A DNA stretch of 64,000 nucleotides from a candidate division WOR-3 bacterium UBA6260 (GTDB taxonomy: Bacteria; Hydrothermota; 32-111), in contig DJVI01000028.1 of the NCBI GenBank assembly GCA_002441125.1, positions 35,377-99,376 of the forward strand, read 5' to 3'. Positions 6,069 through 52,242 of this stretch are shown here, one piece after another. Positions within the stretch are counted from its first letter, which is position 1. The number at the start of each line of letters is the position of its first letter. Below the pieces are notes generated by a model, which was not told the origin of the DNA, did no database searches, and was given only the letters and a program-made list of their open reading frames with translations. The position numbers were made by a program, and so were the translations under genes.

Positions 6069-6256
6069 CTTCCTTTGCACAATTCCTCCTTTTACACCTA
6101 TTATATACAAAAAAAATGCCAAATATAAGTGTAACAATTTCATTATGTTATGATTATATGACATTCTGGATTTTTTTAAATTGAGAATCATTTACAATTA
6201 AGTATTTGTTTTTATAGACTTATAGTTTGTAAAAAGAATTTGCAAAAGTCATAATT

Positions 6257-6973: not shown

Positions 6974-7090
6974 AATTACTCCTTTTTTTTCTAATTCAGT
7001 TAAACACATTATTTGTGCCAAACTAAATTATTATTTTTTATAACTTAAAGTTAATAAAAAGTTATGAACACATTACAAATGTTTAAAATG

Positions 7091-7118
7091 TTGACAATTT
7101 GGTTTTAAAGTTTATTAT
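7091..7118 (+). promoter_or_regulatory. Sigma-70-type promoter (TTGACA-16 nt-TATTAT) that abuts the transporter start codon, possibly producing a leaderless mRNA
   Basis: TTGACA at 7091-7096 and TATTAT at 7113-7118. The ATG is at 7126, with no RBS in between. Confidence 0.4.
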
Positions 7119-7125
7119 CCTAATT

Positions 7126-38655: not shown

Positions 38656-38682
38656 TATAAAAAGGGGGAAAATCCCCCTTTA
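38656..38682 (-). terminator. Rho-independent terminator after the aldehyde dehydrogenase gene
   Basis: On the minus strand: TAA-AGGGGG-ATTTT-CCCCCTT-TTTAT. A 7-bp GC-rich stem (38662-38668 / 38674-38680) followed by a T-run. It overlaps the stop codon. Confidence 0.5.
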
Positions 38683-40188: not shown

Positions 40189-41103
40189 CTATTTTAATAT
40201 TTTTTCAAGTTCTAAATCTGAAGGGTATCTCTCTTCAAAAAGTGTAACTACTTCAGATTCATAATTTATTATCCTTCCAAAATCATCCACAAAAAGGGTC
40301 AATTTATCAAAACTTGAAAGTTCTCCATATCCTTTCATAATAATTGTATGATTTAAAGGTGTTTCGATAGCATTTCTTAAACCAATCCCATCGAATCCAC
40401 CAAGCATAATATCTATTCCTTCAACATTTTCCGCAATTATCCTATCATGTTCAAGACCAACGGATGTAAGACCTATTATAATTGAACATCTGTTTTTTTT
40501 CAATATATCAACAACCTCTTTAGTTTTCTCAATCTCTTTTTCAATAATGTAATATTTAGCTACCTCTTCATCCATATTCAATGTAGCATACTCTGAAACT
40601 AACCCAAAAATTCCAATTCTGATACCTTCCTTTTCCATTATAACATATTTTTGTGGTTGTATCTGGGAATCAACTATCTTCAGGTTAGATGATATCAGTT
40701 TTGGATTAAACAAATTAAAGGCTTCATTTAAAAATTTAGGACCAGCGATTATTTCATCAACACCTATATTTACAACATCGTAACCCATATAATTAAAGTA
40801 TAGGGAAGGTTTAGTAAAATCTGTTGAATCTAAATCTACAGATTTGTAAACAAAATTCCCAGAATCAAAGAGGAGAAATATCTGATTCTTTTTGTTAGCT
40901 AGCTCCCTTTCATATTTTACAGCTGTTGAAAGTGAATATATCCCACCAAGAACAGGTGGAAACTCAGGGTTTATAAATGTAGCTTCCCTTCTTTCAAGTA
41001 CATTCCTTATATCGTTCGTGTGTAATATAACTATCTCTTTTGAAAAAAGGGAAATAACAGTAAGAAAAAATGATAAGAAGAAAAAATTTTTTTTCATTTT
41101 CAC
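40189..41103 (-). CDS. Secreted 5'-nucleotidase-like (calcineurin-fold) protein with degenerate metal/catalytic motifs, probably non-catalytic
   Basis: Signal peptide. ILHTNDIRN replaces ILHTNDHHG. FDSGNF replaces LDAGD. GVDEII replaces GNHEFD. GGFDG replaces GGHSH. There is no C-terminal nucleotide-binding domain (304 aa). Confidence 0.55.
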   Translation of the reverse strand: MKMKKNFFFLSFFLTVISLFSKEIVILHTNDIRNVLERREATFINPEFPPVLGGIYSLSTAVKYERELANKKNQIFLLFDSGNFVYKSVDLDSTDFTKPSLYFNYMGYDVVNIGVDEIIAGPKFLNEAFNLFNPKLISSNLKIVDSQIQPQKYVIMEKEGIRIGIFGLVSEYATLNMDEEVAKYYIIEKEIEKTKEVVDILKKNRCSIIIGLTSVGLEHDRIIAENVEGIDIMLGGFDGIGLRNAIETPLNHTIIMKGYGELSSFDKLTLFVDDFGRIINYESEVVTLFEERYPSDLELEKILK

Positions 41104-41106
41104 CTC

Positions 41107-41676
41107 TTAGAAAACTGTTATTCTGTCAACAGATTTTTCAAGAATCTTTGTGAAATAACTTTCATAGATTTTACCTAAAGTATCCGATTTAATCAGAACT
41201 GAAGCTTCATTGTTTTTATCAAGAGCATGGTAACTCCAGTTCGTTGAACCAACTATTACAAAGATAGAATCAATTATCATCGTTTTTGCATGAAGGGTTG
41301 CTTCAGGATCATCATAGAAAACCTTAACTCCTCCACTTTTCAAAAAATCTCCAAGATCTTTATTCCTCGTGCTCTGATTTGGATTGAAACCTGACTGATC
41401 TAGAACTATTTTAACATCAACTCCCCTTTTTACAGCATCGAAAAGGGATTCATAAATTTTCTGGTTCACTCCATCCTTTCTTTCAGGATAGTAACCACCT
41501 TCAAGCATCATTATGTGAATAGTTTTAGATGAATTTTTTATAAGTTTTATAAGATTTTTTGAATACTCTCTGTTATTCATTGTAATAGCACCATCAGCCT
41601 GAAGAAAATTTAAACTGTCTGAAAAAATAAGTTTGAAAGTTAACAAAAATATAATTAGAAAAAATTGTTTTTTCAT
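41107..41676 (-). CDS. Secreted PLD-family protein with a single HKD motif (Nuc-like nuclease or phospholipase fold)
   Basis: Signal peptide. LHAKTMIIDSIFVIVGSTNWS matches HxKx4Dx6GSxN. 189 aa. Confidence 0.75.
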   Translation of the reverse strand: MKKQFFLIIFLLTFKLIFSDSLNFLQADGAITMNNREYSKNLIKLIKNSSKTIHIMMLEGGYYPERKDGVNQKIYESLFDAVKRGVDVKIVLDQSGFNPNQSTRNKDLGDFLKSGGVKVFYDDPEATLHAKTMIIDSIFVIVGSTNWSYHALDKNNEASVLIKSDTLGKIYESYFTKILEKSVDRITVF

Positions 41677-41684
41677 ACCAACTC

Positions 41685-42260
41685 CTAAGGTGTAATTGTT
41701 AAAGTATCTGATCTGAACTCATAAATCTTTTCAAAAAAATCCTCATACTTTAAAGATATATCTTTTGATTTCAAAGCTACCGCACATTCATCATTTTTTG
41801 CAAGAGCATAGAAACTCCAGTTTGTTGAACCAACAACCGTTATAGAAGAATCTATAACTATAAATTTCGCATGGGTTGTTATGTCTGGCATATCAAAGTA
41901 AACCTCAACACCAAATTTTCTCATATATTGTGCATACTCGTTATTTTTTACCGAAAGGGATGGATTCCATGATGACTGGTCAACAATTAAAACAACCTTC
42001 ACACCTCTTTTTACAGCATCAATCAAAGAGTTCTGAAGTTCAGTAGGTTCCCCTTCTGGATAATCCGGATAATAGCCAACCTGATAGATAACAGCATGAA
42101 TAGTTTTTTGTGCATTGTTAAAAAGTTTTATCAGAGTTGGAGTGTAATCCCTGTTGTTCATAGGGATTACTCCATCAACTGGAAGTAAATTTATCTTTTC
42201 TTGGGAGATTAAAAACAGAAAGAATATAAAAACGAATAAAGTTAAAAATATCTTTTTCAT
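41685..42260 (-). CDS. Secreted PLD-family single-HKD protein (paralogue of 41107-41676)
   Basis: Start at MKKIFLTLFVFIFFLF (AGGAG RBS 5 nt upstream). THAKFIVIDSSITVVGSTNWS. Same length and layout as its neighbour. Confidence 0.75.
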   Translation of the reverse strand: MKKIFLTLFVFIFFLFLISQEKINLLPVDGVIPMNNRDYTPTLIKLFNNAQKTIHAVIYQVGYYPDYPEGEPTELQNSLIDAVKRGVKVVLIVDQSSWNPSLSVKNNEYAQYMRKFGVEVYFDMPDITTHAKFIVIDSSITVVGSTNWSFYALAKNDECAVALKSKDISLKYEDFFEKIYEFRSDTLTITP

Positions 42261-42267
42261 AATACTC

Positions 42268-43428
42268 CTAAAATTTAACTGAAACATCACCAACAAATTT
42301 TAAAACTCTGTCAGTATAGTAAACATCTTCCTTCTCATAGTTAACATTCTTATAGTTTAAGGCAAGTGTAAAATCTGTCATACCGATTTTGTAAGTTAAA
42401 CCTGTTGTAAAACCTATATCAACCAATCTGTTGTCCTTCCTGTAAGGTTCATACATAAAACCATACATCATATCTATATTTTTATTCAGTTGATGTAAAA
42501 CTCCTATGTTGTATTTTATAAGATCATTGTAATCTATAAATTGACCGTTTAATTCACTCCACCTTTCATAAGTTATTGAAGAATAGAATACGGCAGGTGC
42601 AACATTTTTAGCCCTGTATTCCAAACCAAATGAGAATATGTCTGGAATTATGTAATAAACGGTTTCAGTCAAAAGGTTGGTGTCAGAAGCTATAACATCG
42701 GTGACCCTGTTAACTGTAATGTATGTTCTGATATTGTAAACGAAAGAAAGTTTAAGATCATCTTTATAATTATATGAAAGGCCAAAATTACCTCTTATCC
42801 CAGAATAATTCTCTTTCGCTGAAGAAGTTGAGTCTGTGTATGAAGGATCAACGAAAAGTTTTGAGTAATCATCTGAACCATCACCCTGCATAATCGAAAA
42901 GTTTGTTCCAAGGGTAAAACCCAAAATCTTGTAATTCAAGCTCAAAAAATATGTGTTCACATTCCCAATCCTAATCTGACTCTCATCGTATAAAAGAACA
43001 TAGTTATCGTTTCTATATATCTGTCTGTATGTATAATCGTTGTTTATATAATTTTCATAACCTATGTATAAACCAAAATCAGATATTGGCATATAACCTA
43101 AAATGTATGCAGGTTCACCATAAAGGAAACTGTTATCGTAAACATTCTTTTTGGCAACACTGTTTTCATAGGAATCAAAAATATATTTTGATCTCGTTTC
43201 TCTGGTCTGGAGTCCATAGAATCCGAGTGAAACAAAATAGTTTTGGGTTTTACATTCAACGGTTGGGTTTAAAAGTGGGTTGAAAAAGAAATCGTTGTTA
43301 CCTAATGCAGCACCCTTACTGAAAAGTGATGTGTTAAAATCACCAAGTCCAGTTCTATAAAGTGAAGTGTAAGGGAAAAGAGTTAAAGAGAAAAGAAAGA
43401 TTAAAATAATATAAAAAAACTTTTTCAT
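42268..43428 (-). CDS. Predicted beta-barrel outer-membrane protein
   Basis: Signal peptide MKKFFYIILIFLFSLTLF. Alternating aromatic/hydrophilic pattern. C-terminal ...VSVKF (terminal Phe). Confidence 0.5.
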   Translation of the reverse strand: MKKFFYIILIFLFSLTLFPYTSLYRTGLGDFNTSLFSKGAALGNNDFFFNPLLNPTVECKTQNYFVSLGFYGLQTRETRSKYIFDSYENSVAKKNVYDNSFLYGEPAYILGYMPISDFGLYIGYENYINNDYTYRQIYRNDNYVLLYDESQIRIGNVNTYFLSLNYKILGFTLGTNFSIMQGDGSDDYSKLFVDPSYTDSTSSAKENYSGIRGNFGLSYNYKDDLKLSFVYNIRTYITVNRVTDVIASDTNLLTETVYYIIPDIFSFGLEYRAKNVAPAVFYSSITYERWSELNGQFIDYNDLIKYNIGVLHQLNKNIDMMYGFMYEPYRKDNRLVDIGFTTGLTYKIGMTDFTLALNYKNVNYEKEDVYYTDRVLKFVGDVSVKF

Positions 43429-43436
43429 TTTTCCTC

Positions 43437-45857
43437 CTACCATCTGATATCTATCTGACAAGATAAACCAATAAGGTTTTTGTATTCATCAAAATCTGAT
43501 ATAACCTGAAAATCTGAATCTATGTAACGGTATTTGTTATTATAAACAGATATACCTGAAAATGTAGTTTCCTGATTTTTTAAGGATAGTTTCATCCTCA
43601 TAGAAAGAAGATCAGATATCCTATCAACAAAACTCAAGTACATCTTATCACCTTTTCCATAAAGGAAATCTATCCCATTATCCTCAAGTATCCATTGACT
43701 CATACCGTTAGTATTCCATGTCGCAAAACCACCAAGAACGGAAAAGAAATCGGTTATCCTCTTTTCATAGGAGAGGTTTACAAAAGAACCATCTATGAAA
43801 TTATTATCCGTGTTTCCTCCTGTTGTTAATTTAACCATTCCATACCTTGCTTCAAAATTAAGATAATCGTTGTTGGAAAGAACGGTGAATATCCTCAAAG
43901 TTGTTTCGTTAGTTACAGAGTTTGTTGAAACAATATTTTTATAAATGTTCTTTTCCTGTATTTTGTATTTTAACCTTATCCTAACAGGGAAAACAGGTCT
44001 TAACTCTATTTCGCTCTGGAATCTATAGTTAAGAAGGTTATAATCGAGAGTTCTCCAAATATCAAGGTATGTGTAGTTTAGTGTTAAATTTGATAAAATC
44101 CTATACCTTGTTTCAAGATATATACCCTCCTCAGGTCTTGGCCTTGGGTCATCGAGAATGTATGTGAAAAGCGGATCTATAAGTCTATAGGTTTTTTCAA
44201 ACTCCGTATCATCATATCTTGACTGCTCATAGAAAGGTCTCGAATAAAAATTTGTGTAACCAACATCGTACCTTCTTAAAAGACCTACAAAATAAAAATC
44301 ACTGTAAACCAATCCGCTTTTTATAACATAAGCTTTACTTTTATCCTGTAAAGCGAACTCCCCTTGTAAAAATAGATTTTTGTAAGCAGTTTGGAAATTA
44401 AATCCGTAAACATTCAACCTATCATTTTTAAATTCGTTAAGGTAAACAGGTATTTTCAGGTTGTCTTTATCGAAAGGTATATCCAAATTTAAACTATCCT
44501 GTTTGAAATCTTTGTCAAATAAAGAGTTGAAACCTGAAAATCCGATTTGTGTCACAAGTGGAAGGTTAAGGATCCCACCTATATTTAAAGCTACTTTCCC
44601 ACCTAAAGTTTTTTCACCATAAACATCTGTAAACTGATCTATATAAGTTTTTGTTAAAAGTGGTAGATTTACGGTTGAATCCCTGTTTAAAATTCCATCC
44701 CTTTTCATCTGAGACAAAAATAAAAGGTAGTATAATCTTTTAACATTTCCTTCCAAAGCTATACCGAAAAGGTTGTTTGCAAAAGATTCATTTAAATCAA
44801 CGAAAAGCCCGGAACTCCTGTCATATGTTCTTGAGCTCTTCTCATCAGTATTATCGAATATTAAACCTTCATTCAGAGTTACCCTATAATTCCCAAATAT
44901 CAAATTTTTTATAAAAGGTATATCTCTTACCTGAAAATATCCTTTAATATTTCTTTCTCCGATTGTTGAATAATCTGAAAACAATGTCCCAAAAGAAAGA
45001 TTGTTCCCAACATTCAGGATTATTTTGTTGTAAAGGTTTGAACCTATCTTTCTTTTCTGTAACTGCGAGTACTCACTTTCAATTCTACTTTTCAAAGAAT
45101 CAACTTCCTCTGAAGTGTAACCTGCCTTTAAAAGAGTATTCCTCAAATTTACCGAATCAGGATTTACTACCTCAAGTTGACTCAACCTGTATGATAGTTC
45201 ATTAGCGAGAGCAGAAAATGATGAGTATCCATAAGTATCATCGTTGGAATATTTCATCTTCGTTCTTATATAACCTGAGAGGTCAAAAAAACTTCTCTTT
45301 TCATCTTTGAAGGAAATATAGTTTTTCAAATTGGAATAGGCATAATAGGTCAGATTAGGTGTTCTTCTAAGATCTGTAAGGTATCTGTATGTTCTTGATT
45401 TTTTCCCCTGCATTATAGCTTCAACATCAGTTAACCTTACTCCATATATCTGTAAAAGTTCTTCAAAGCCAACCCTGTTAACATTGAGTTTCTCAACAAG
45501 CAGCCTTTCCCATAGATCTATAGCACCTCTTGAAGGGTTTTCCTCTCCAGCCAACCTGTCTTGAATTCTTAGGATGTAAATTGAGGTTGAATCTATAGTA
45601 GTGTCAGGTTTTATCATAATCTTTTCTTTCAATATTGAAAAGATCTCATAATCAACACCTTCTATATTCATAAGTTCATATATAGATTTAATCTCTCCAT
45701 GATTTTTTATATAAACTTTGATGTTGTTTATAACTTCATCAGGGATAAAGAGAGTATCAAGTGCAGATGGGTCTTGATTGTTTATATCTATCTTATCCTG
45801 AGAGAAAGTTATAGAAAAGATGACAAGGATTAAAAGAAAAATATATATCCTTTTCAT
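43437..45857 (-). CDS. Large outer-membrane protein with N-terminal ComEA-like helix-hairpin-helix modules and a C-terminal beta-barrel-like region
   Basis: Signal peptide. INNQDPSALDTLFIPDEVINNIKVYIKNHGEIKSIYELMNIEGVDYEIFSILKEKI follows the ComEA HhH pattern (IN..s...L..LPGIG...A..I..YR..nG.F.S.EEL..V.GIG.K.fe.lk). A second weaker copy reads VGFEELLQIYGVRLTDVEAI. The ~650-aa remainder is Y/N/S-rich and ends ...IDIRW. Confidence 0.5.
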   Translation of the reverse strand: MKRIYIFLLILVIFSITFSQDKIDINNQDPSALDTLFIPDEVINNIKVYIKNHGEIKSIYELMNIEGVDYEIFSILKEKIMIKPDTTIDSTSIYILRIQDRLAGEENPSRGAIDLWERLLVEKLNVNRVGFEELLQIYGVRLTDVEAIMQGKKSRTYRYLTDLRRTPNLTYYAYSNLKNYISFKDEKRSFFDLSGYIRTKMKYSNDDTYGYSSFSALANELSYRLSQLEVVNPDSVNLRNTLLKAGYTSEEVDSLKSRIESEYSQLQKRKIGSNLYNKIILNVGNNLSFGTLFSDYSTIGERNIKGYFQVRDIPFIKNLIFGNYRVTLNEGLIFDNTDEKSSRTYDRSSGLFVDLNESFANNLFGIALEGNVKRLYYLLFLSQMKRDGILNRDSTVNLPLLTKTYIDQFTDVYGEKTLGGKVALNIGGILNLPLVTQIGFSGFNSLFDKDFKQDSLNLDIPFDKDNLKIPVYLNEFKNDRLNVYGFNFQTAYKNLFLQGEFALQDKSKAYVIKSGLVYSDFYFVGLLRRYDVGYTNFYSRPFYEQSRYDDTEFEKTYRLIDPLFTYILDDPRPRPEEGIYLETRYRILSNLTLNYTYLDIWRTLDYNLLNYRFQSEIELRPVFPVRIRLKYKIQEKNIYKNIVSTNSVTNETTLRIFTVLSNNDYLNFEARYGMVKLTTGGNTDNNFIDGSFVNLSYEKRITDFFSVLGGFATWNTNGMSQWILEDNGIDFLYGKGDKMYLSFVDRISDLLSMRMKLSLKNQETTFSGISVYNNKYRYIDSDFQVISDFDEYKNLIGLSCQIDIRW

Positions 45858-45866
45858 AAAAAACTC

Positions 45867-46745
45867 CTAAAAGGAATAGGACAGCTGGATATGGTTTCTT
45901 GAAGGAAGGTTAACAACTGTTGTGTAACCATAATCTATAGATAGATTTTTTATTTTCATTTCAAATCCTATTCCAAGATTTGTTGGATAACTTCTTACTC
46001 CGGAATATATTGTGAACAGATTCTTTATTAACTGGTATTTCAATGAAAAACCGAAAGAAGTAGGTTCACCACTGACTTTTGAAATATCAAAATTTGTGGT
46101 CAAACTCTCATAAGGTAAGTAAGTCAAACCAGCAGAGACCTTTCTTGTTATATAGTATCTTTGGTTACTCATAGCACCAACAATATATGTGTCTGTGAAA
46201 TTCGAAACCGCAAGCCCAATAAACCATCTATCATAAACTTTACCTATCATTCCTAAATCAGCTGTATAGAATATATTGTTGTTAGCATCAACACCTTCCA
46301 TCTTCTGTTCGATAAAAAGAAAGTTCAAATTTGTTCCAAAAAATATTAGATCGTTGAATCCAAGACCGTATGTTAACTGGACAACTCTTTCTGTCTGCAA
46401 TCTCGTGTTAGTACTTAATAAAGAGTCACCGTTTGAATAATCACCGATTACGAAAAGTTCAGAATACTTTAAACCAATGTTACCATAATCTGAAAAGTAT
46501 CCTCCCGATAGAGAAGCAGCATGTATGAACCTGTAAAGATTCTCATAAGAAACTGATACCTGATATTTATCAAGCCCCATTATAGACGCTGGATTTACTG
46601 TGATATTATCTATTCCAGAGATCATACCGGTTGTTGCGTAGGCCATACTTTTTGTCTGAACATTACCGGGTATATATTCGAAAGCAGCATAAGAATAGAT
46701 AAAAGTCAAAAAAGAAATTATGAAAATTAAAATAATCTTCTTCAT
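45867..46745 (-). CDS. Beta-barrel outer-membrane protein, PorP/SprF-like (tentative)
   Basis: Signal peptide. N-terminal GIDNITVNPASIMGLDKYQVSVSYEN resembles the PorP/SprF NPAxxG...YRxQW start. C-terminal ...LSYSF. Sits immediately downstream of a T9SS-CTD cargo gene. Confidence 0.4.
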   Translation of the reverse strand: MKKIILIFIISFLTFIYSYAAFEYIPGNVQTKSMAYATTGMISGIDNITVNPASIMGLDKYQVSVSYENLYRFIHAASLSGGYFSDYGNIGLKYSELFVIGDYSNGDSLLSTNTRLQTERVVQLTYGLGFNDLIFFGTNLNFLFIEQKMEGVDANNNIFYTADLGMIGKVYDRWFIGLAVSNFTDTYIVGAMSNQRYYITRKVSAGLTYLPYESLTTNFDISKVSGEPTSFGFSLKYQLIKNLFTIYSGVRSYPTNLGIGFEMKIKNLSIDYGYTTVVNLPSRNHIQLSYSF

Positions 46746-46756
46746 CTTTTACCTCA

Positions 46757-48730
46757 TCATTTTAATTTTGTTGATATAACAACAGGTTTTGTTATAGAAT
46801 AACTGTAACCTTTACTATCTATCTTGGTTACATTTAAAATATAGATGCCCAAATTACATAATGCACCATTTTTATCCTTACCATCCCAAAGGTATATACC
46901 TGAACCAGGTTGGTTTTCACCTATAGTTTTTATATGTTTTCCATTTATATCGTAAATCTTCAATGTGAACCTTTCATCATTCAAACCTTTCACCTCTATC
47001 CTTAAAACCTGTCCATAATCTGGTGAAAATGGATTCGGGAAAAGTGAAACGGAAGATGTTGAATCTTCAGGTAAACTCAAAATATTTATATCAGATTTTT
47101 TCCTAACCTGTAATTGATAGCCTGATGTATATGGTGATTGACTGTCATATTGGCCACCTATTCCAATAACATCAACTATCTTACCGGGAACTATAGAACC
47201 CATTATTTCATCTTCATAAAGACCTGTTGATTTGTTTATTCTAACATCTATAACAGAGTATCCATTCTGAATCTGGAAATTTTTACCTGTTCCCGCATCG
47301 ACAGGATATGTTAAAATCTTACCATAAACTACTTTCAAAAGTTTTCCTTCAACAAGCTCCGATATACCCTGAGAGTTTTTAAGTTCTTCTGGTTGTACAT
47401 AAGCGAAAGTATCATTTAAAATGTAAACATCGGTATCGGGTGATGAGTACTTTATCTCAGTTAAACCGTTATACTCTGTAACAACTCCCCTGACCATCAC
47501 CTCAACACCTTCTTTGAATTTTTGATTCGCAGGATCTGATGATGAGTATATATCAACACCACCAGTTTTATCCTGAATGAAAAATCCTGTCGATGTTGCG
47601 GTCGGAGAAAAAATACTCGATGATCCTATAACAACTCCTTTAACTGAAACAACCTGATTAACATACTTTGAATTGTAACCATCATTTGTAGATTGAACTT
47701 CAGAGATATCCATAAGGTTTGAAAAAGGTGTTTTCTTCATTATGAAAAATGGTGAAACAGGTAAAAGTTGTGTTTGGCTAACACCGGTATAAAGTTTCAC
47801 AGTATCACTGTTTGTGAAGTAATAATTTTTAACATAAATTTTTATAGAGTCCTTGAAAATAATATTGTTTATATTAACTGTTGTTGTAGTTGATGTTGTA
47901 TCTATTGTTATCTTAGAAGAGTCAAACAAGATAAAGGATGAGTCACAAAGAACCTTTATTGAATCTTTTAACAACTTTTTGTTAAAAACGAGTTTTAAAT
48001 ACTTAATGGTTCCATATATAGTGTCAACATTTGGAATAAGATCAACCCTTATATCGTTATAGGATGAATCGTTGAAAAATTTAGGATTAACATTTACCAA
48101 ACCACTACCATCAATAGTTTTTAAAACATCATCGTTACCATAAGGTTTTAACTCATATTTCCCGTTGTATTCATCCATACAACCTCTTATGAAAATAAAA
48201 GTATCGTTGAGAGCTTCAACAGTTACAGGGTAAGAATTATCTTCATAGATTATCATAGGCCCAGACCCATCATCGACTTGCCATTCCCTTGCTGATGTTA
48301 TCTGTGTAACAGCGCAATTTTCAACCTGTATAAACATACCTTCATACTTTTCTTTCCCAGCATCACCTGTTTTCACAATAACTGGACCTGGGACTTTTAC
48401 ACCCTTTGCAAGAACTGTTAGAGTTGTTGGGTTTGATATTTCAGTTTTTCCATTATATTCTACAACCTGACCAGTAACAATTATAGAATCACCAACTTCA
48501 ACAGGTGTTGGAGGATTGTAAACTAATATTCCGTGCCAAGGTAAAGTATCATCCTGAATGTAAACATTAACACCGAAAACTCTTGTAACTATTCCAGAGA
48601 TTGTAACGGTTTGTCCAGCATAAGGTGATGCTCCTGAAATATTTTCAGTGTATTGAACATCATAAATTGTAAGCCCAAATGAAACTATAAAAAGAGAAAC
48701 TACTGAAAAGAATAAGAATAGATATTTCAT
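46757..48730 (-). CDS. Secreted multi-domain protein with two OB-fold-like repeats and a T9SS type-A C-terminal sorting domain
   Basis: Signal peptide. Repeat 1: IYDVQYTENISGASPYAGQTVTISGIVTRVFGVNVYIQDD...GILVYN...VGDSIIVTGQVVEYNGKTEI. Repeat 2: ISEVQSTNDGYNSKYVNQVVSVKGVVIG...GFFIQDKTGGVDIYSS...GVEVMVRGVVTEYNGLTEI. The C-terminus SLFPNPFSPDYGQVLRIEVKGLNDERFTLKIYDINGKHIKTIGENQPGSGIYLWDGKDKNGALCNLGIYILNVTKID...KPVVISTKLK fits the Por_Secre_tail / TIGR04183 pattern. Confidence 0.6.
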   Translation of the reverse strand: MKYLFLFFSVVSLFIVSFGLTIYDVQYTENISGASPYAGQTVTISGIVTRVFGVNVYIQDDTLPWHGILVYNPPTPVEVGDSIIVTGQVVEYNGKTEISNPTTLTVLAKGVKVPGPVIVKTGDAGKEKYEGMFIQVENCAVTQITSAREWQVDDGSGPMIIYEDNSYPVTVEALNDTFIFIRGCMDEYNGKYELKPYGNDDVLKTIDGSGLVNVNPKFFNDSSYNDIRVDLIPNVDTIYGTIKYLKLVFNKKLLKDSIKVLCDSSFILFDSSKITIDTTSTTTTVNINNIIFKDSIKIYVKNYYFTNSDTVKLYTGVSQTQLLPVSPFFIMKKTPFSNLMDISEVQSTNDGYNSKYVNQVVSVKGVVIGSSSIFSPTATSTGFFIQDKTGGVDIYSSSDPANQKFKEGVEVMVRGVVTEYNGLTEIKYSSPDTDVYILNDTFAYVQPEELKNSQGISELVEGKLLKVVYGKILTYPVDAGTGKNFQIQNGYSVIDVRINKSTGLYEDEIMGSIVPGKIVDVIGIGGQYDSQSPYTSGYQLQVRKKSDINILSLPEDSTSSVSLFPNPFSPDYGQVLRIEVKGLNDERFTLKIYDINGKHIKTIGENQPGSGIYLWDGKDKNGALCNLGIYILNVTKIDSKGYSYSITKPVVISTKLK

Positions 48731-48731
48731 T

Positions 48732-50135
48732 TTACCTCCTGAGAGTCCCTTTCCTCTTTGAGGAAGGGAGAATATTTAAATTTTCTCTGTATTTAGCAAC
48801 CGTTCTTCTTGCAATTTTAATAGAATATTTTTCTTCAAGTATTTTAACAAGATCTAAATCTGAGTAAGGATTGTTTGGGTCCTCTTTTTCAATCTCCTCT
48901 TTGATTATATTCATAATATTCTTGTTTGAAACCTCAAAACCTGAATTGTTTTTAACTCCTTTTGAAAAGAAAAATTTTAAAGGAAAAATACCTGAAGGAG
49001 TATCCATATATTTATTCTCTATAGCTCTTGAAACTGTTGCTTCATGCATTCCTATATGACCTGCTATATCGCTTAAAGTTAAAGGTTTCAACGAAGAGAT
49101 ACCGTTAAAGAAAAAATCTTTTTGAACAGCGATAATTCTTTCAGATATCTTTAAAAGTGTATTGTTCCTTCTATATATCCCTTCTAAAAGGAATAACGCC
49201 GCATTGAATTTATTTTTTAAAAATCTTTTTTCTTCCTGTGAAAGGTTTTCTTTGTTTTTGTACATATCAAAATAACTTTTGCTAAGATGAACTTCCGGAA
49301 ATGATTGAAGGTTCAAAGATACATAAAGTTCTTCTCCCCTCTGCTCTACAATAACATCTGGTATTATGTAATCAGTACTCTTCCCCCAAACCCCATTAGC
49401 AGGCTTTGGATTTAGACTTTTTATTGACTCTAAAGCTTTTTCAAGTTTACTTCTTGTTATTTTGAGTTTATTTTCTATTATATACAATTTGTTTGTTAAA
49501 AACTCCTCATAGAACTCTTTTATAATTCTGTATTCCAATGTTTCTTCTTTCTTTTGGTTTTCGAGTTGGGTAAGTAAAACTTCTTGAACACTCCTGCTTC
49601 CTATTCCAACAGGTTCAAAAAACTTGTACTTTGAGTGAACATACTCAACCTTTTCAAGCGGAAGTTTTAGATTCTCAGCTAATTCAGACAAAGAGATTTC
49701 CAAAAGTCCATCATCGGAAAGTGAAAAAGTTATCTCTTCTGCAATTTTTATCTCATCTGGATCATCGAAAAAAATATGTGATTGTGTCAGAAGATAATCT
49801 TGCAAATTTTCAGGCTCCTCAACATTCGAAATCGGATCGAACTCTTCATCCTCTCTGTTATACCTCTCAGATGGCAGAGAAGCTTTTTTCCACTCATCAT
49901 GAAAAAAATACTCATAATCTATCTCATCCTTTAAAGGGAGCTCAGGTTCAACCTCCTCATAGGAGACATCTTCCTCCTCAAGTATATCATCAGTTAAAAA
50001 CGGATTCTGTTCTATTTCATTTGTTATAACCTGTTGTAATTCAAGTAATGGCAGTTGCAATATCTTTACAAGAGTTAGAAGTTGAGGGGTTAATTTAATC
50101 TCCTGTCTTAAAGAGGTTTCAAGTTTTTGTTTCAT
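48732..50135 (-). CDS. rpoN: RNA polymerase sigma-54 factor
   Basis: N-terminal Gln/Leu-rich activator-interaction region (LTPQLLTLVKILQLPLLELQQ). C-terminal RpoN box ARRTVAKYRE. Confidence 0.92.
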   Translation of the reverse strand: MKQKLETSLRQEIKLTPQLLTLVKILQLPLLELQQVITNEIEQNPFLTDDILEEEDVSYEEVEPELPLKDEIDYEYFFHDEWKKASLPSERYNREDEEFDPISNVEEPENLQDYLLTQSHIFFDDPDEIKIAEEITFSLSDDGLLEISLSELAENLKLPLEKVEYVHSKYKFFEPVGIGSRSVQEVLLTQLENQKKEETLEYRIIKEFYEEFLTNKLYIIENKLKITRSKLEKALESIKSLNPKPANGVWGKSTDYIIPDVIVEQRGEELYVSLNLQSFPEVHLSKSYFDMYKNKENLSQEEKRFLKNKFNAALFLLEGIYRRNNTLLKISERIIAVQKDFFFNGISSLKPLTLSDIAGHIGMHEATVSRAIENKYMDTPSGIFPLKFFFSKGVKNNSGFEVSNKNIMNIIKEEIEKEDPNNPYSDLDLVKILEEKYSIKIARRTVAKYRENLNILPSSKRKGTLRR

Positions 50136-50851
50136 AATCTGAATCTTTCTCCGAGATAGAGTTGTCTGGCTTTTTCATCATTTATCAACTGGTGGGCATC
50201 GCCAGATAGGAGTATCTTTCCTTCATATATTATATGAGCGATATCAACTATTTCAAGTGTTTCCCTGACATTATGATCCGTTATCAAAATCCCAATACCT
50301 TCCTTTGCAAGTTCTTTTACCATATTCTGTATCTCTTCTTTAACTTTTGGATCTATTCCGGTAAAAGGCTCATCAAGAAGCAAAAATTTTGGATTGGAAG
50401 TTAAAGCTCTCGCAATTTCAACTCTCCTTCTTTCACCTCCAGAAAGTTTGTAAGCTGGAAGATCTTTCAAGTGGGAAACCTTGAATTTTTCAAGAAGTTC
50501 AAAAGTCCTTTCTTTATTTTTCTTTTTATCTTTGTAAAGCATCTCAAGAATAGAGTAGACATTCTCATATACTGTCAGTTGCCTGAAAATTGAACTCTCC
50601 TGTGGCAAATATCCTATCCCCAACCTTGCCCTTCTGTACATAGGCAGATTTGTTATATCCTTTTCATCAAGAAATATATTCCCTGAAGATACCTGAACAA
50701 CTCCAACCATCATGTAAAATGTTGTAGTTTTACCAGCACCGTTTGGACCCAAAAGCCCAATGATTTTCCCATTTTCAACTTCTATTGAAAGTCGATCAAC
50801 AACTTTTCTTTTACCATAAAACTTCACAAGGTTTTCACTTCTCAGTTTCAT
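50132..50851 (-). CDS. lptB: LPS export ABC transporter ATP-binding protein LptB
   Basis: GLLGPNGAGKTTTF (Walker A), LSGGERRRVEIARAL (signature), LLLDEP (Walker B). 239 aa. Directly upstream of rpoN. Confidence 0.88.
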   Translation of the reverse strand: MKLRSENLVKFYGKRKVVDRLSIEVENGKIIGLLGPNGAGKTTTFYMMVGVVQVSSGNIFLDEKDITNLPMYRRARLGIGYLPQESSIFRQLTVYENVYSILEMLYKDKKKNKERTFELLEKFKVSHLKDLPAYKLSGGERRRVEIARALTSNPKFLLLDEPFTGIDPKVKEEIQNMVKELAKEGIGILITDHNVRETLEIVDIAHIIYEGKILLSGDAHQLINDEKARQLYLGERFRL

Positions 50852-51746
50852 CTTTTTCCTTTTTCACAAGTTCACTCTCTTTAATTTTATAAAATTTAAG
50901 AATATCAACTTTTGATGATTTAAAACTACCATCAAGTGAATCACAAACTATTATAACAATATTATCATCTTCATTTTTAAATACAATATTATTTTTCCCA
51001 ACCATCCTTTTTAAACTGTCATTCTCAAAATAGAAAAAGAAAGTGTCTCCCTGAAAGGAAGAGTTCTTTGCAACTATATCTCCCCTTTTCAAAGTTTTAA
51101 AAAAGGGTTCTTTTCTATAATAATTCACTGAATCAGATTTTATCGTGAAACTATCGTTAAAAATTTCAACTCCATTTGAAAAAATATTAACAGAATCTTT
51201 ATCATCTATCACAATGTTACCAGATCTTATAGAATATGAAGAGTCATACTTTTGAAGGAAAGAGTTACCTTTAAAATAAATCCTTTCAACATTTTTCAAA
51301 TATTCAACTCTATCTCCAAAAATTTTTAACTTCTCTTCAACATTATCAAAACAAGGTTTTCCGGTAAAAATAAAAAGAGAATCATCAAGAAAAATTTTTA
51401 AAGTTTCACTCTCAATCGAAAATCTATTCTCTTTTTCAGTTCTTTGAAAATTAATATAGAATCTTTTTTCCTTTATAAAATAGACTCCATATTTTGCAAA
51501 GATTTTAACAGAATCCTTTCTCTCCAAAATAAAACTTTTGGGGAAAAAGATCAAAGAATCCTTCTTCAAAATGAAAGACGAATCAGTTTTAAGGGAGTAA
51601 TCGTCAGATTTGAAATCAACATTTTTAAAGAAAAATATAGTATCCCCAATTATGGATGCTTTTTCAGAATAGAGTGTATAAGCATAGAAAATTTCTGGTA
51701 AAAAAAACAATATGATAAAAGCCAAAGTTTTATTTATTTTCATCAT
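50835..51746 (-). CDS. lptA: LptA/OstA-family periplasmic protein
   Basis: Signal peptide. Repetitive beta-jellyroll-like sequence with OstA_N character. Its position between the lptC-like gene and lptB. Confidence 0.55.
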   Translation of the reverse strand: MMKINKTLAFIILFFLPEIFYAYTLYSEKASIIGDTIFFFKNVDFKSDDYSLKTDSSFILKKDSLIFFPKSFILERKDSVKIFAKYGVYFIKEKRFYINFQRTEKENRFSIESETLKIFLDDSLFIFTGKPCFDNVEEKLKIFGDRVEYLKNVERIYFKGNSFLQKYDSSYSIRSGNIVIDDKDSVNIFSNGVEIFNDSFTIKSDSVNYYRKEPFFKTLKRGDIVAKNSSFQGDTFFFYFENDSLKRMVGKNNIVFKNEDDNIVIIVCDSLDGSFKSSKVDILKFYKIKESELVKKEKDETEK

Positions 51747-52242
51747 ATATCAAAACTGGCGAAAGGAATAGAGTTTTTTTAAAATTATCAAAACAGATAA
51801 AACCTTTTGTTAACATCCTATCATCCTTCTTTTCTATCATTATCGAATCGTCAGTTCTTAAGGTATCAGTGTTTATATCGTAAAGAAGATGGTTAGTGTA
51901 AAGAACCATAGAGTCAGAAAAAATAACTCGAACATTCTTAAAATATTCTATCCTTTTTTCAAAAACATTTGAACTTTCCGCAACAATCTTAACTTTTTCT
52001 CCATCCTCCCTATCATACTCAACATTTTTAAGAATATACATATTCATAGAATCTATATAGTAACCTGTATCAGATTTTATTGAATAAATTTTTACATCTT
52101 TTTGAAAATATTCTGATTTGAAACCTGTAACAATATCTTCCTGATATTTTTCTATCTTTTCTGTATTCTCTCTTCCACAGAATAAAAGAAAGAAGAAAAT
52201 ACTAACCGTTACTATCCTGAAATATCTTACTGAAGAAATCAT
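51730..52242 (-). CDS. lptC: LptC-like membrane-anchored protein
   Basis: A single N-terminal TM (IVTVSIFFFLLFCG), ~170 aa, upstream of lptA-lptB. Confidence 0.45.
   Translation of the reverse strand: MISSVRYFRIVTVSIFFFLLFCGRENTEKIEKYQEDIVTGFKSEYFQKDVKIYSIKSDTGYYIDSMNMYILKNVEYDREDGEKVKIVAESSNVFEKRIEYFKNVRVIFSDSMVLYTNHLLYDINTDTLRTDDSIMIEKKDDRMLTKGFICFDNFKKTLFLSPVLIYDENK

What the first reader, a model, noticed from the sequence alone, without database searches (positions are those of the whole stretch)
45867..48730. Type-A T9SS C-terminal sorting domain on a protein with duplicated OB-fold modules, paired with a PorP/SprF-like barrel, in a genome whose housekeeping synteny is not Bacteroidetes-like
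The last ~90 aa of the 657-aa protein (FPNPFSP ... LKIYDINGKHIKTI ... GIYLWDGKDKNGA ... GIYILNV ... KPVVISTKLK) match the Por_Secre_tail consensus closely. The next gene encodes a ~290-aa barrel whose N-terminus resembles PorP/SprF. That cargo-plus-partner arrangement is known from Bacteroidota T9SS loci. The surrounding conserved synteny is of the kind I associate with Firmicutes-, Thermotogae- or Fusobacteria-like genomes: DUF512-der-plsY; TIGR03960/03936-rng; rplU-rpmA; gap-pgk-tpi-secG. So either the organism belongs to a T9SS-bearing lineage with that core gene order, or a CTD-based sorting system exists in an unexpected lineage. The cargo has no catalytic domain, only binding-type modules.
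Basis: partly seen in the sequence, partly recalled or inferred. Interest (0 to 1): 0.55.

Follow-up and report, generated by a model that had tools for sequence, protein, structure and literature searches.

The report
Candidate outer-membrane DNA-capture gene cassette
A secreted DNA-binding-type protein with a type IX-like sorting tail sits in a conserved gene cassette of an uncultured WOR-3 bacterium, next to three outer-membrane barrels (one with competence-protein-like DNA-binding domains) and two secreted nuclease-type proteins, which suggests an undescribed device for capturing or importing extracellular DNA.

Summary
The two genes exist exactly as described, on the minus strand: a 657-aa secreted protein (46757-48730) and a 292-aa barrel (45867-46745).

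The interpretation needs correcting in three places.
1. The C-terminal domain is homologous to T9SS type-A CTDs: hhalign probability 98%, and a full-length match to the PorU CTD. But it scores as FlgD_ig (28 bits) and falls below the Por_Secre_tail and TIGR04183 cut-offs.
2. The barrel is not PorP/SprF. It is a divergent 14-strand member of the PorV/PorQ (FadL-fold) family.
3. The organism belongs to candidate division WOR-3 (93% identity to 'TA06 bacterium 32_111'). A canonical PorV/PorQ-family gene lies on the same contig.

The larger result is that the pair belongs to a cassette kept in the same gene order in most of 31 species-level genomes (GC 30-68%), in several different genomic contexts:
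- a CTD protein
- a PorV/Q-like barrel
- an ~800-aa barrel with two ComEA-like helix-hairpin-helix domains
- a BamG/FadL-like barrel
- then Nuc/NucT-like PLD nucleases and/or a 5'-nucleotidase

Independent fusions link the parts: OB module + PLD + CTD, and PorV/Q-like barrel + ComEA.

Best reading: a surface DNA-capture and uptake or degradation apparatus built from T9SS-type parts. This is inferred, not shown. Whether a T9SS translocon (SprA, PorKLMN) is present could not be tested.

The parts
46757..48730 (-). 657-aa secreted 'cargo': signal peptide, double-OB module 1, a middle region, double-OB module 2 and a C-terminal sorting-type domain.
   Evidence: An 82%-identical homolog lies in a WOR-3 MAG. 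Distant homologs fuse the same OB module to PLDc_2 or Metallophos plus a CTD.
48116..48673 (-). Double-OB module 1 (aa ~20-205), resembling the N-terminal region of ExeM/NucH and DUF5689.
   Evidence: NF033681, 58 bits, partial match. Self-alignment with module 2 at E 7e-8.
47096..47719 (-). Double-OB module 2 (aa ~338-545).
   Evidence: PF01336, 29.6 bits at aa 362-426; weak PF18942 DUF5689 hit; self-alignment with module 1.
46760..47050 (-). C-terminal domain (aa ~561-657). It belongs to the T9SS type-A CTD / FlgD_ig superfamily and is a variant ending ...KPVVISTKLK.
45867..46745 (-). 292-aa outer-membrane barrel, a divergent PorV/PorQ-family (FadL-fold) member. It has a conserved NPAS hatch motif and a terminal Phe.
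   Evidence: NF033709, 30 bits. The AF2 model has 14 strands at pLDDT 59. Foldseek top hits are OmpG, TodX/FadL and the chain 8gl6_F of a T9SS complex. Of 106 remote relatives, 103 hit PorV_fam. The family profile matches PorV 6h3i at E 7.5e-15. hhalign gives 99.5% against the same-contig PorV-like protein.
43437..45857 (-). 806-aa outer-membrane protein: signal peptide, two ComEA-like (HhH)2 domains, a helical linker, then a large beta-barrel of ~550-600 aa that no Pfam family covers. It ends in Trp.
   Evidence: The 93%-identical protein in TA06 bacterium 32_111 is named 'Competence protein ComEA (Modular protein)'.
45297..45815 (-). Tandem helix-hairpin-helix region (aa ~15-187) of the 806-aa protein.
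   Evidence: HHH_3, 26.5 bits for the window protein. All 16 diverse family members hit HHH_3, best E 3e-14. PDB matches: EEPD1 tandem HhH at 3e-17 and ComEA at 3e-8.
42268..43428 (-). 386-aa third barrel of the FadL/BamG/PorV superfamily. The start is ambiguous: an upstream in-frame ATG 5 codons upstream of this start (about 43443) would give 391 aa (the longest ORF, from a TTG at 43461, gives 397 aa).
   Evidence: No direct Pfam or NCBIfam hit. The family profile matches BamG 9n2d_B at 1.2e-9, TbuX/TodX, and PorV at 0.005. hhalign gives 98.9% against the small-barrel family.
41685..42260 (-). Secreted single-HKD PLD-family protein 1, Nuc/NucT-like.
   Evidence: PLDc_2, 83.7 bits. NucT models give 53 bits over the full length, below the cut-off. 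The HxK(x)4D...GSxN motif is intact.
41107..41676 (-). Secreted single-HKD PLD-family protein 2, 44% identical to protein 1.
   Evidence: PLDc_2, 85.7 bits. Best PDB matches are Nuc endonuclease 1byr at 4.6e-8, NucT 6ehi and MitoPLD. Paralogy with protein 1 is.
40189..41103 (-). Secreted domain resembling the N-terminal domain of UshA/5'-nucleotidase. It is probably catalytically dead and lacks the C-terminal substrate-binding domain.
   Evidence: NF041198, 62.8 bits. In the alignment to CD73, the metal ligands are replaced: DxH->DIR, GD->GN, GNHE->GVDE, H->T/S, H->F. In other clades a full 517-566-aa 5'-nucleotidase occupies this position.

Best explanation
The finding is the front end of a conserved outer-membrane cassette in a WOR-3 bacterium.

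Proposed mechanism (steps 1 to 5):
1. The 657-aa protein is exported by the Sec pathway and then across the outer membrane. This second step probably uses a T9SS-like route signalled by its C-terminal domain.
2. It is held on the cell surface because that domain docks on the adjacent PorV/PorQ-like 14-strand barrel. PorZ on PorQ and PorU on PorV are held this way in Bacteroidota.
3. Its four OB-type domains bind extracellular nucleic acid.
4. The small barrel and a second FadL/BamG-like barrel act as adaptor barrels beside a large new barrel. The N-terminal, presumably periplasmic, ComEA-like HhH domains of that barrel receive or hold the DNA.
5. Two secreted Nuc/NucT-like PLD proteins, possibly a heterodimer, cut the DNA. 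In other clades a 5'-nucleotidase releases nucleosides.

What is shown:
- gene order and its conservation
- family assignments
- signal peptides
- domain fusions

What is inferred:
- DNA binding
- topology
- complex formation
- the export route
- whether the purpose is nutrition or transformation
For: **Cassette conservation**
- A scan of one genome per species found 31 loci with GC from 30% to 68%.
- In most of them the order is CTD protein / small barrel / HhH barrel / third barrel.
- What follows the third barrel differs between groups of loci:
  - two PLD genes plus a pseudo-UshA
  - one PLD gene plus a UshA-like gene
  - a full 5'-nucleotidase
  - two CAP-domain genes plus a 5'-nucleotidase
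- The flank of rpoN upstream and aldehyde dehydrogenase downstream is found only in the low-GC clade. Elsewhere the cassette sits in other contexts, so it moves as a unit.
- Pairwise homology of all four core genes with the distant locus L010 was confirmed.

**Coupling of CTD protein and barrel**
- The gene directly upstream of the small barrel ends in a CTD in most loci. This holds even where it is a Kelch/beta-propeller or nitroreductase-like protein instead of the OB protein.

**Barrel identity**
- Published precedent for FadL-fold barrels that flank a large barrel and tether surface proteins: BamG (PMC12611786) and PorV.

**Link to DNA**
- The OB modules match the N-terminal region of ExeM/NucH.
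- The same OB module is fused to PLDc_2 or Metallophos plus a CTD in other phyla.
- HHH_3 hits all 16 diverse big-barrel homologs. ComEA matches at E 3e-8 and EEPD1 at E 3e-17.
- Eleven of 106 relatives of the small barrel carry C-terminal ComEA domains. One of them is an Elusimicrobia protein.
- The PLD proteins have intact HKD motifs and signal peptides. Their best solved relatives are the nucleases Nuc, NucT and MitoPLD.

**T9SS-type parts in the genome**
- A canonical PorV/PorQ-family gene lies on the same contig.
- A related WOR-3 genome has C25 peptidases with type-A CTDs next to the cassette.
Against: **No direct evidence**
- There is no experimental evidence for DNA binding, nuclease activity or complex formation.
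- OB folds can also bind oligosaccharides or proteins.

**Weak domain calls in the window proteins**
- The HhH hairpins of the window protein are degenerate: there is a single Gly where ComEA has GIG. Its own HHH_3 score (26.5) is just below the gathering threshold (27).
- The UshA-like protein in this clade has lost its metal ligands, so a nucleotidase step is not supported in this organism.

**Weak structural support**
- The AF2 model of the 806-aa protein is poor (pLDDT 52; the C-terminal 190 aa are unmodelled). Strand number and pore size are therefore unknown.
- The small-barrel model has only pLDDT 59.

**Exceptions among the loci**
- Some loci have non-OB cargo (Kelch, nitroreductase-like).
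- Two loci labelled Cloacimonadota lack a detectable cargo and small barrel.

**T9SS status**
- Presence of a T9SS translocon and motor (SprA, PorK/L/M/N) was not established.
- The CTD is below the curated thresholds for type-A sorting domains.
Confidence: 0.55

Rival explanations
1. This is an ordinary T9SS cargo with a dedicated anchor. The OB protein is a surface adhesin, for example for matrix DNA or a polymer. A standard T9SS secretes it and its private PorQ-like barrel holds it. The downstream barrels and PLD genes are functionally unrelated neighbours.
For: - The CTD is homologous to the PorU and PorZ CTDs.
- The barrel belongs to the PorV/PorQ family.
- A PorV-family gene lies on the same contig.
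- Tight operons are common in small genomes, so adjacency alone is weak evidence.
Against: - The four core genes travel together in unrelated genomic contexts and across 30-68% GC.
- A nuclease or 5'-nucleotidase gene always follows the core genes.
- Barrel-ComEA and OB-PLD fusions tie the parts together independently.
Confidence: 0.2
2. The cassette is an envelope-biogenesis or secretion machine rather than a DNA system. The 806-aa barrel would be a lineage-specific translocon, a mini-SprA analogue. Alternatively it would be an assembly factor served by PorV-like and BamG-like adaptor barrels. The CTD proteins are its clients, and the HhH domains have a structural or peptidoglycan-related role.
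For: - The cassette lies next to lptC-lptA-lptB-rpoN in the window clade.
- The best solved relative of the third barrel is BamG.
- The upstream CTD proteins vary between loci (OB, Kelch, nitroreductase-like), as expected for clients.
- C25 peptidases resembling PorU lie next to the cassette in L027.
Against: - The lpt/rpoN adjacency is confined to one clade.
- The HhH domains are conserved in all 16 diverse members and match ComEA specifically.
- A 5'-nucleotidase-family or PLD nuclease gene follows the cassette in the loci that extend far enough downstream.
- The barrel shows no similarity to SprA, BamA or LptD.
Confidence: 0.12
3. The C-terminal domain is only a structural Ig-like (FlgD-type) module with no sorting role, and the barrel is a generic FadL-type channel for hydrophobic substrates. 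The pairing would then be coincidental.
For: - The domain passes the FlgD_ig threshold but not the Por_Secre_tail or TIGR04183 thresholds.
- The top PDB hits by E-value are FlgD proteins.
- Foldseek cannot separate the barrel from OmpG or FadL.
Against: - The same domain sits at the extreme C-terminus of unrelated secreted proteins in these lineages: OB, GH57, C25 peptidase, Kelch and Metallophos proteins.
- It aligns over its full length to the PorU CTD.
- There is no FlgD N-terminal domain and no flagellar context.
- A CTD-terminated gene lies directly upstream of the barrel in most of the related loci.
- Relatives of the barrel overwhelmingly hit PorV/PorQ models.
Confidence: 0.08

Closest known systems
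T9SS attachment-complex pairs PorZ-PorQ and PorU-PorV (Porphyromonas gingivalis, Flavobacterium johnsoniae)
   Same: - A protein with a type-A-like CTD is encoded beside a FadL-fold 14-strand PorV/PorQ-family barrel.
- Among T9SS structures, the best matches to the CTD profile are the PorU and PorZ CTDs. These are the two CTDs that are retained and stay bound to those barrels.
   Different: - The window barrel scores only 30 bits on the family model, against a cut-off of 90, and is ~70-100 aa shorter.
- The CTD scores as FlgD_ig and has a different C-terminal strand region.
- The cargo is an OB-fold protein, not a sortase or an A-LPS carrier.
- The host is WOR-3, and a SprA/PorKLMN machine has not been demonstrated there.
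SprB-SprF type pairs (type-B CTD cargo with a cognate PorP/SprF barrel)
   Same: The cargo gene is followed immediately by a dedicated small outer-membrane barrel gene.
   Different: - The barrel gives no PorP/SprF model hit (PF11751, TIGR03519).
- The CTD is related to type A and FlgD_ig, not to type B.
BamG-BamH-BamA canopy of the Bacteroidota BAM complex (PMC12611786)
   Same: A FadL-fold barrel acts as an adaptor beside a larger barrel and tethers a surface-exposed protein. BamG is the best solved relative of the third barrel of the cassette.
   Different: - The large barrel here is not Omp85/BamA.
- The tethered protein carries a CTD and is not a lipoprotein.
- No POTRA domains and no BamD are present.
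ComEA-dependent DNA uptake through the PilQ secretin in competent Gram-negative bacteria
   Same: ComEA-type (HhH)2 DNA-binding domains are placed where incoming DNA would enter the periplasm.
   Different: - The HhH domains are fused to an outer-membrane barrel, or in relatives to a PorV/Q-like barrel, instead of being a free or inner-membrane-anchored protein.
- No secretin or pilus genes are in the cassette.
- The cassette is accompanied by nucleases.
Extracellular and periplasmic nucleases ExeM/NucH, YhcR, Nuc and NucT
   Same: - The N-terminal OB modules resemble those that precede the catalytic domains of ExeM/NucH and YhcR-type enzymes.
- The PLD proteins are single-HKD, signal-peptide proteins like Nuc and NucT.
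   Different: - The OB protein itself has no catalytic domain.
- Binding and catalysis are split between separate genes.
- The PLD proteins are below the NucT equivalog cut-offs.
Sus-like polysaccharide utilisation loci
   Same: The logic is the same: a surface binding protein, an outer-membrane conduit and periplasmic hydrolases are encoded together.
   Different: There is no SusC (TonB-dependent) or SusD homolog, and the presumed substrate is nucleic acid.

Membership tests
T9SS type-A C-terminal sorting domain (TIGR04183 / PF18962) | Scores at or above the curated model cut-off | tested here: not met
   TIGR04183 gives no hit at E<=0.1. PF18962 scores 14.7 bits on the full protein and 22.5 bits on the isolated domain, against 27.
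T9SS type-A C-terminal sorting domain (TIGR04183 / PF18962) | Homologous to bona fide CTDs and located at the extreme C-terminus of a Sec-signal protein | tested here: met
   hhalign gives 98% probability against a set of PF18962-positive CTDs, but only over columns 2-78 of 97. The PorU CTD 6za2 matches at E 2.9e-5 over residues 1060-1154 of 1156. The domain occupies aa 561-657 of 657, and a signal peptide is visible.
T9SS type-A C-terminal sorting domain (TIGR04183 / PF18962) | The genome encodes the T9SS core (SprA/Sov, PorK/L/M/N, PorU, PorV) | tested here: inconclusive
   A PorV/PorQ-family protein passing its cut-off lies on the same contig (200.7 bits against 90). C25 peptidases with a CTD, resembling PorU but far below the PorU cut-off, occur in a related WOR-3 genome. 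SprA and PorKLMN could not be searched genome-wide.
T9SS type-A C-terminal sorting domain (TIGR04183 / PF18962) | Export depends on the T9SS, and PorU cleaves or retains the CTD | not testable with these tools
   Needs genetics or proteomics.
FlgD flagellar hook-capping protein (FlgD_ig PF13860) | Ig-like domain scores above the cut-off | tested here: met
   28.1 bits on the full protein and 31.5 bits on the isolated domain, against 27. FlgD structures match at E ~2.5e-6.
FlgD flagellar hook-capping protein (FlgD_ig PF13860) | FlgD N-terminal domain and a flagellar gene context | tested here: not met
   No FlgD N-terminal domain is present. The FlgD equivalog models score 14-21 bits against cut-offs of 230-383. 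The neighbours are lpt, rpoN and barrel genes.
PorP/SprF family (TIGR03519 / PF11751) | Model hit | tested here: not met
   No hit at E<=0.1. Only 8 of 106 remote relatives hit TIGR03519 weakly, while 103 hit PorV_fam.
PorV/PorQ family (NF033709) | Scores at or above the family cut-off (90 bits) | tested here: not met
   30.1 bits, E 3.5e-7.
PorV/PorQ family (NF033709) | Transitive or profile-level homology to PorV/PorQ | tested here: met
   103 of 106 relatives hit NF033709, best E 3e-39, and 65 hit PorQ. The family profile matches PorV 6h3i at E 7.5e-15. hhalign gives 99.5% against the same-contig PorV-like protein.
PorV/PorQ family (NF033709) | 14-strand FadL-type barrel with an N-terminal hatch (NPA-type motif) | tested here: met
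   The AF2 model has 14 strands, though at low confidence (pLDDT 59). NPAS is invariant. Foldseek hits FadL/TodX and the 8gl6_F chain of a T9SS complex.
ComEA-type (HhH)2 DNA-binding domain (PF12836 / TIGR01259) | Model hit | tested here: inconclusive
   The window protein scores 26.5 bits against 27. But 16 of 16 family members hit HHH_3, best E 3e-14, and the family profile matches ComEA at E 3e-8.
ComEA-type (HhH)2 DNA-binding domain (PF12836 / TIGR01259) | Binds double-stranded DNA in the periplasm | not testable with these tools
   Topology is inferred from the domain lying N-terminal to a barrel. The GIG hairpins are partly degenerate in the window protein.
Nuc/NucT single-HKD PLD nucleases | PLD domain with an intact HxK(x)4D...GSxN motif and a signal peptide | tested here: met
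   PLDc_2 scores 84 and 86 bits. The motifs and signal peptides are visible. Nuc 1byr matches at E 4.6e-8.
Nuc/NucT single-HKD PLD nucleases | Equivalog-level score; nuclease activity | tested here: not met
   The NucT models score 26-53 bits against cut-offs of 211-351. Activity cannot be tested here.
UshA / 5'-nucleotidase | Dimetal-binding residues and the C-terminal substrate-binding domain | tested here: not met
   The ligand positions are replaced in the alignment to CD73. The protein is 304 aa and lacks 5_nucleotid_C. Orthologous positions in other clades hold complete enzymes.
ExeM/NucH extracellular endonuclease (NF033681) | EEP catalytic domain and a score at or above 300 | tested here: not met
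   58.3 bits. Only model positions ~34-116 of 546, the N-terminal OB region, are matched.

The most novel reading that the evidence does not exclude
The cassette encodes a previously undescribed outer-membrane apparatus for DNA capture and uptake. Its parts would be:
- a new ~600-residue barrel carrying periplasmic ComEA-like domains
- two FadL-fold adaptor barrels (PorV/Q-like and BamG-like) flanking it
- a CTD-docked OB-fold DNA-binding protein displayed above it

This would be a route for DNA across the outer membrane that is independent of pili and secretins. It occurs in WOR-3 and some Cloacimonadota-labelled genomes. Barrel-ComEA fusions suggest related devices in other phyla, including Elusimicrobia.
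Probability: 0.35. Interest if true: 0.8.

Novelty: new variant of a known kind. Interest (0 to 1): 0.62.

Why it matters
**Where T9SS-type parts are found.** The result extends T9SS-type parts (a CTD signal and a PorV/Q adaptor barrel) to WOR-3. NCBI taxonomy does not place this phylum in the FCB group, and the searchable literature does not discuss type IX secretion there.

**A family-level hypothesis.** FadL-fold adaptor barrels may have been recruited repeatedly to DNA-binding ComEA modules. One such recruitment forms a complete, portable cassette together with nuclease-type genes.

**If the hypothesis is right.** Uncultured anaerobes with small genomes would have a dedicated way to harvest or import extracellular DNA. 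That bears on nutrient cycling in sediments and reservoirs. It also bears on how DNA crosses an outer membrane without type IV pili.

**What can be tested now.** The work defines a new barrel family of ~800-aa proteins, sampled here from 31 species-level genomes, that is ready for structure prediction and biochemistry.

Tried and rejected
**Rejected or downgraded**
- PorP/SprF identity of the barrel is rejected: no model hits.
- 'Close match to Por_Secre_tail' is downgraded: the scores are below threshold.
- Direct BLAST and hhalign of the barrel against a KSB1 PorV gave only 30% probability. The link to PorV needed the wider family profile.
- An active 5'-nucleotidase role for the 304-aa protein is rejected, because the metal ligands are lost.
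- An obligatory link to lpt/rpoN is rejected, because it is specific to one clade.

**Uninformative or unavailable**
- The AF2 model of the 806-aa protein was poor, and its Foldseek hits were generic porins with TMq ~0.2.
- The promoter and terminator scan was uninformative in this AT-rich DNA: 87 sites found against 78.5 expected. The one useful feature is a good terminator after the aldehyde dehydrogenase gene, at 38665-38678.

**Searches that found nothing**
- No other CTD protein lies in the 64-kb window.
- No PorU-like gene was found in the other loci held.
- Literature searches for WOR-3 with type IX secretion, and for ComEA with PorV, found nothing relevant.

**Not possible with these tools**
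- A genome-wide search for SprA and PorKLMN could not be run.

Full report
**1. What is at the coordinates**

On the minus strand lies a tightly packed gene run with gaps of 1-12 bp:
- lptC-like (51730-52242)
- lptA-like (50835-51746)
- lptB (50132-50851)
- rpoN (48732-50135)
- the 657-aa protein of the finding (46757-48730)
- the 292-aa barrel (45867-46745)
- an 806-aa protein (43437-45857)
- a 386-aa protein (42268-43428)
- two ~190-aa PLD proteins (41685-42260 and 41107-41676)
- a 304-aa UshA-like protein (40189-41103)
- an aldehyde dehydrogenase, followed by the only convincing terminator of the region, at 38665-38678

All seven proteins from the 657-aa one to the UshA-like one begin with a typical hydrophobic signal peptide. 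The three barrels end in Phe, Trp and Phe. The window has ~30% GC throughout.

**2. The cargo**

The 657-aa protein contains a duplicated module. Residues 20-136 align with 340-467 at E 7e-8, and the motif V-x-EYNG-x-x-E recurs at ~91, ~186 and ~418. This suggests that each module is a pair of OB-like domains.

Family matches for these modules:
- Pfam calls an OB fold (tRNA_anti-codon, 29.6 bits) and, weakly, DUF5689.
- NCBIfam matches the N-terminal, non-catalytic part of the ExeM/NucH extracellular nuclease model (58 bits, positions ~34-116 of 546).

**3. The C-terminal domain**

Scores against the curated models:
- FlgD_ig passes: 28.1 bits on the full protein and 31.5 bits on the isolated domain, against a threshold of 27.
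- Por_Secre_tail does not: 14.7 and 22.5 bits against 27.
- TIGR04183 gives nothing at E<=0.1.

Comparisons with a profile built from 16 family CTDs:
- It aligns to a profile of PF18962-positive CTDs with 98% probability, but only over columns 2-78. The last ~19 residues (…KPVVISTKLK) differ from the canonical …KKMVLLK ending.
- Against solved structures it hits FlgD proteins (E ~2.5e-6, partial). It also hits the CTD of PorU over its full length (6za2, E 2.9e-5) and the CTD of PorZ (0.008).

The same domain ends unrelated secreted proteins in these lineages: GH57, C25 peptidase, Kelch, Metallophos and LTD/fn3 proteins. I therefore treat it as a divergent member of the type-A CTD / FlgD_ig superfamily that acts as a C-terminal tag. 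It does not pass the family's curated threshold.

**4. The 292-aa barrel**

It gives no PorP/SprF signal. What it does show:
- a weak PorV/PorQ family hit (30.1 bits against a cut-off of 90) and a weak FadL/Toluene_X hit over the N-terminal hatch
- an invariant NPAS motif in its 15-member family, at the place of the FadL NPA motif
- 14 strands in the AF2 model, at low confidence (pLDDT 59, pTM 0.61)
- Foldseek hits to 14-strand barrels: OmpG, TodX/FadL and chain 8gl6_F of a T9SS substrate complex, which has the highest TMq (0.60)

A full-library profile search found 928 relatives, mostly 265-300 aa. Of 106 relatives scanned:
- 103 hit PorV_fam (best E 3e-39)
- 65 hit PorQ
- 58 hit 'PorV2'
- 19 hit PorV
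- only 8 hit PorP/SprF, and weakly

The wider family profile matches solved PorV (6h3i, E 7.5e-15). It also aligns end to end with a canonical PorV-like protein of the same organism (99.5%). Verdict: a short, divergent paralog of the PorV/PorQ family.

**5. The organism**

Names attached to close homologs of three different cassette proteins all point to candidate division WOR-3:
- 82% identity for the cargo
- 80% for the barrel
- 85% for the 806-aa protein (WOR-3 MAGs), and 93% to 'candidate division TA06 bacterium 32_111'
- 56% for the barrel, to a 'Candidatus Stahlbacteria' MAG

NCBI taxonomy lists WOR-3 as the phylum Caldifarciminota, outside the FCB group clade. The exact cargo sequence occurs on five metagenome contigs.

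On the 106-kb contig that contains the window, ~4 kb beyond the window end, lies a 363-aa protein between rpmB and truB. It passes the PorV/PorQ family cut-off (200.7 bits against 90) and is most like T9SS PorV (131 bits, below the equivalog cut-off of 250). Next to it is a small protein with a near-threshold type-A CTD. A related WOR-3 genome (L027) has two C25 peptidases with type-A CTDs beside the cassette. They resemble PorU but score far below its cut-off.

No paper in the library mentions WOR-3 together with type IX secretion. The two recent WOR-3 genome papers do not discuss secretion. I could not search any genome for SprA or PorKLMN.

**6. The neighbours change the picture**

*The 806-aa protein.*
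- It has two ComEA-like (HhH)2 domains at its N-terminus. The window protein scores 26.5 bits on HHH_3.
- All 16 diverse homologs hit HHH_3, best E 3e-14.
- The family profile matches the tandem HhH of EEPD1 (3e-17) and ComEA (3e-8).
- After the HhH region come a helical linker and ~550-600 residues of beta structure that no Pfam family covers.
- The AF2 model is poor, and fold hits are generic porins.

*The 386-aa protein.*
- It is a second FadL-superfamily barrel.
- Its best solved relative is BamG (1.2e-9), followed by TbuX/TodX and PorV.
- It is related to the small-barrel family (98.9%).

*The two PLD proteins.*
- They are 44% identical paralogs with intact HxK(x)4D…GSxN motifs.
- Their best solved relatives are the nucleases Nuc (4.6e-8), NucT and MitoPLD.
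- Nuc works as a dimer with one HKD motif per subunit (general knowledge), so a heterodimer is plausible.

*The UshA-like protein.*
- It aligns with the N-terminal domain of CD73 but has lost essentially all metal ligands and lacks the C-terminal domain. It is probably inactive.

**7. Comparative evidence**

A scan of one genome per species with the 806-aa family found 31 loci with GC from 30% to 68%. Most are labelled WOR-3, and two are labelled Cloacimonadota. In most of them the order is CTD protein / small barrel / HhH barrel / third barrel. Loci cut by contig ends show only part of the order. L024 has no CTD protein next to the small barrel. In the two loci labelled Cloacimonadota, neither a cargo nor a small barrel was detected. 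What follows the third barrel differs between groups of loci:
- the low-GC clade has two PLD genes plus the pseudo-UshA
- some loci have one PLD gene plus a UshA-like gene
- the high-GC clade and one Cloacimonadota-labelled locus have a complete 517-566-aa 5'-nucleotidase
- another group has two CAP-domain genes plus a 5'-nucleotidase

The rpoN-upstream and aldehyde-dehydrogenase-downstream context exists only in the low-GC clade. Elsewhere the cassette lies, for example, after recJ and cobA. All four core genes of the distant locus L010 are individually homologous to the window genes, as is its 5'-nucleotidase to the window's UshA-like gene.

The gene directly upstream of the small barrel ends in a CTD in most loci. 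This is so even where it is a Kelch/beta-propeller protein (L030, L032) or a nitroreductase-like protein (L035) rather than an OB protein.

**8. Fusions**

*The OB module.*
- In Ignavibacteria-type and other metagenomic proteins, one double-OB module is fused to PLDc_2 domains and a Por_Secre_tail CTD.
- In one case it is fused to a metallophosphoesterase plus a FlgD_ig CTD.

*The small barrel.*
- Eleven of 106 relatives of the small barrel carry one or two C-terminal ComEA HhH domains after the barrel. An example is an Elusimicrobia protein. Another member of one of these clusters is annotated 'PorV/PorQ family protein'.

These fusions link OB to nuclease and barrel to ComEA independently of gene order.

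**9. Mechanism proposed**

Shown:
- the families
- the gene order
- its conservation
- the fusions

Inferred:
- The OB protein is displayed at the surface, with its CTD docked on the PorV/Q-like barrel. The precedents are PorZ-PorQ and PorU-PorV.
- The two FadL-fold barrels flank the large barrel as adaptors. The precedents are PorV on SprA, and BamG on BamA where it tethers the surface protein BamH (PMC12611786).
- The HhH domains lie N-terminal to a barrel and so are presumably periplasmic. They would hold incoming DNA as ComEA does.
- The PLD pair degrades the DNA.
- In other clades a 5'-nucleotidase completes the salvage.

Whether the outcome is feeding or transformation is open.

**10. 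Rivals**

- An ordinary T9SS cargo and anchor with unrelated neighbours (confidence 0.2).
- An envelope-biogenesis or secretion machine whose clients are the CTD proteins (0.12).
- A coincidental pairing of an Ig-like domain with a FadL channel (0.08).

The portability of the cassette, the constant nuclease or nucleotidase partner and the two classes of fusion argue against each of these. None is excluded without experiments.

**11. Verdict**

- the C-terminal domain is a sub-threshold, FlgD_ig-scoring CTD
- the barrel is PorV/Q-like, not PorP/SprF
- the lineage is WOR-3, which has PorV-family genes and annotated CTD proteins

The interest lies in the wider cassette, which I did not find described in the searchable literature. 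I rate it a new variant of a known kind, with interest 0.62.

Noticed in passing
L043:3018-4109 (+), same contig as the window (ena:ERZ27315056:k141_943023), ~4 kb beyond window position 64000: A canonical 363-aa PorV/PorQ-family protein lies between rpmB and truB. It scores 200.7 bits on NF033709 (cut-off 90), 131 bits on T9SS PorV (cut-off 250) and hits Pfam PorV. The adjacent 220-aa protein (L043:1906-2568, minus strand) has a near-threshold type-A CTD (TIGR04183, 20.8 bits against 23).
   Followed up: partly
Proteins P0098, P0109, P0141, P0159, P0167, P0219 and others (relatives of the 292-aa barrel): These are fusions of a PorV/PorQ-like barrel (N-terminal ~280 aa) with one or two C-terminal ComEA-type HhH domains. 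P0098 comes from an Elusimicrobia MAG, a phylum I do not know to have a T9SS (from memory, not checked here). Other relatives carry C-terminal TPR or OmpA domains instead.
   Followed up: partly
window 40189-41103 (-): This UshA/CD73-like N-terminal domain has nearly all its dimetal ligands replaced and has no C-terminal domain. It is a conserved pseudo-enzyme in the low-GC clade. Other clades keep a complete 5'-nucleotidase at the same position.
   Followed up: partly
L027:2438-6346 (+) and L027:18360-21869 (-): Two C25-family peptidases with type-A CTDs (TIGR04183, 33 and 27 bits) flank the cassette in a high-GC WOR-3 genome. They show weak similarity to the PorU sortase (61-69 bits against a cut-off of 420).
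   Followed up: partly
L015, L019, L033, L034 (genome contigs records): Contigs labelled Acetofilamentum sp., uncultured Bacteroidales, Desulfuromonas sp. SDB and Desulfuromonadaceae carry the WOR-3-type cassette. L015 and L019 also share its flanking synteny. The taxonomic labels are probably wrong, or the contigs were mis-binned.
   Followed up: no
window 43428-43461, junction of the 806-aa and 386-aa genes: The peptide MVGGKMKK upstream of the called start of the third barrel is conserved in the low-GC clade, and it overlaps the 3' end of the 806-aa gene. This is either an earlier start with overlapping genes (translational coupling) or alternative-frame conservation imposed by the conserved ...DIRW end of the 806-aa protein.
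   Followed up: no
window 2567-4672 (-) and neighbours 253-8584: A 701-aa ATPase combines MshEN, T2SSE and a receiver domain. It sits in a cluster of response regulators, HisKA and HD_5 proteins, and a sigma-54 activator lies just outside the window.
   Followed up: no
window 20344-21936 (-): A 530-aa ORF with no Pfam hit at E<=1e-5, next to the cell-shape genes (mreB, a PBP2-type transpeptidase and a RodA/FtsW-family protein).
   Followed up: no
L010, L039-L041 (cassette variant): In one group of genomes, two lipoprotein-like CAP-domain (PF00188) proteins take the place of the PLD nucleases, between the third barrel and the 5'-nucleotidase. Their role is unknown.
   Followed up: no
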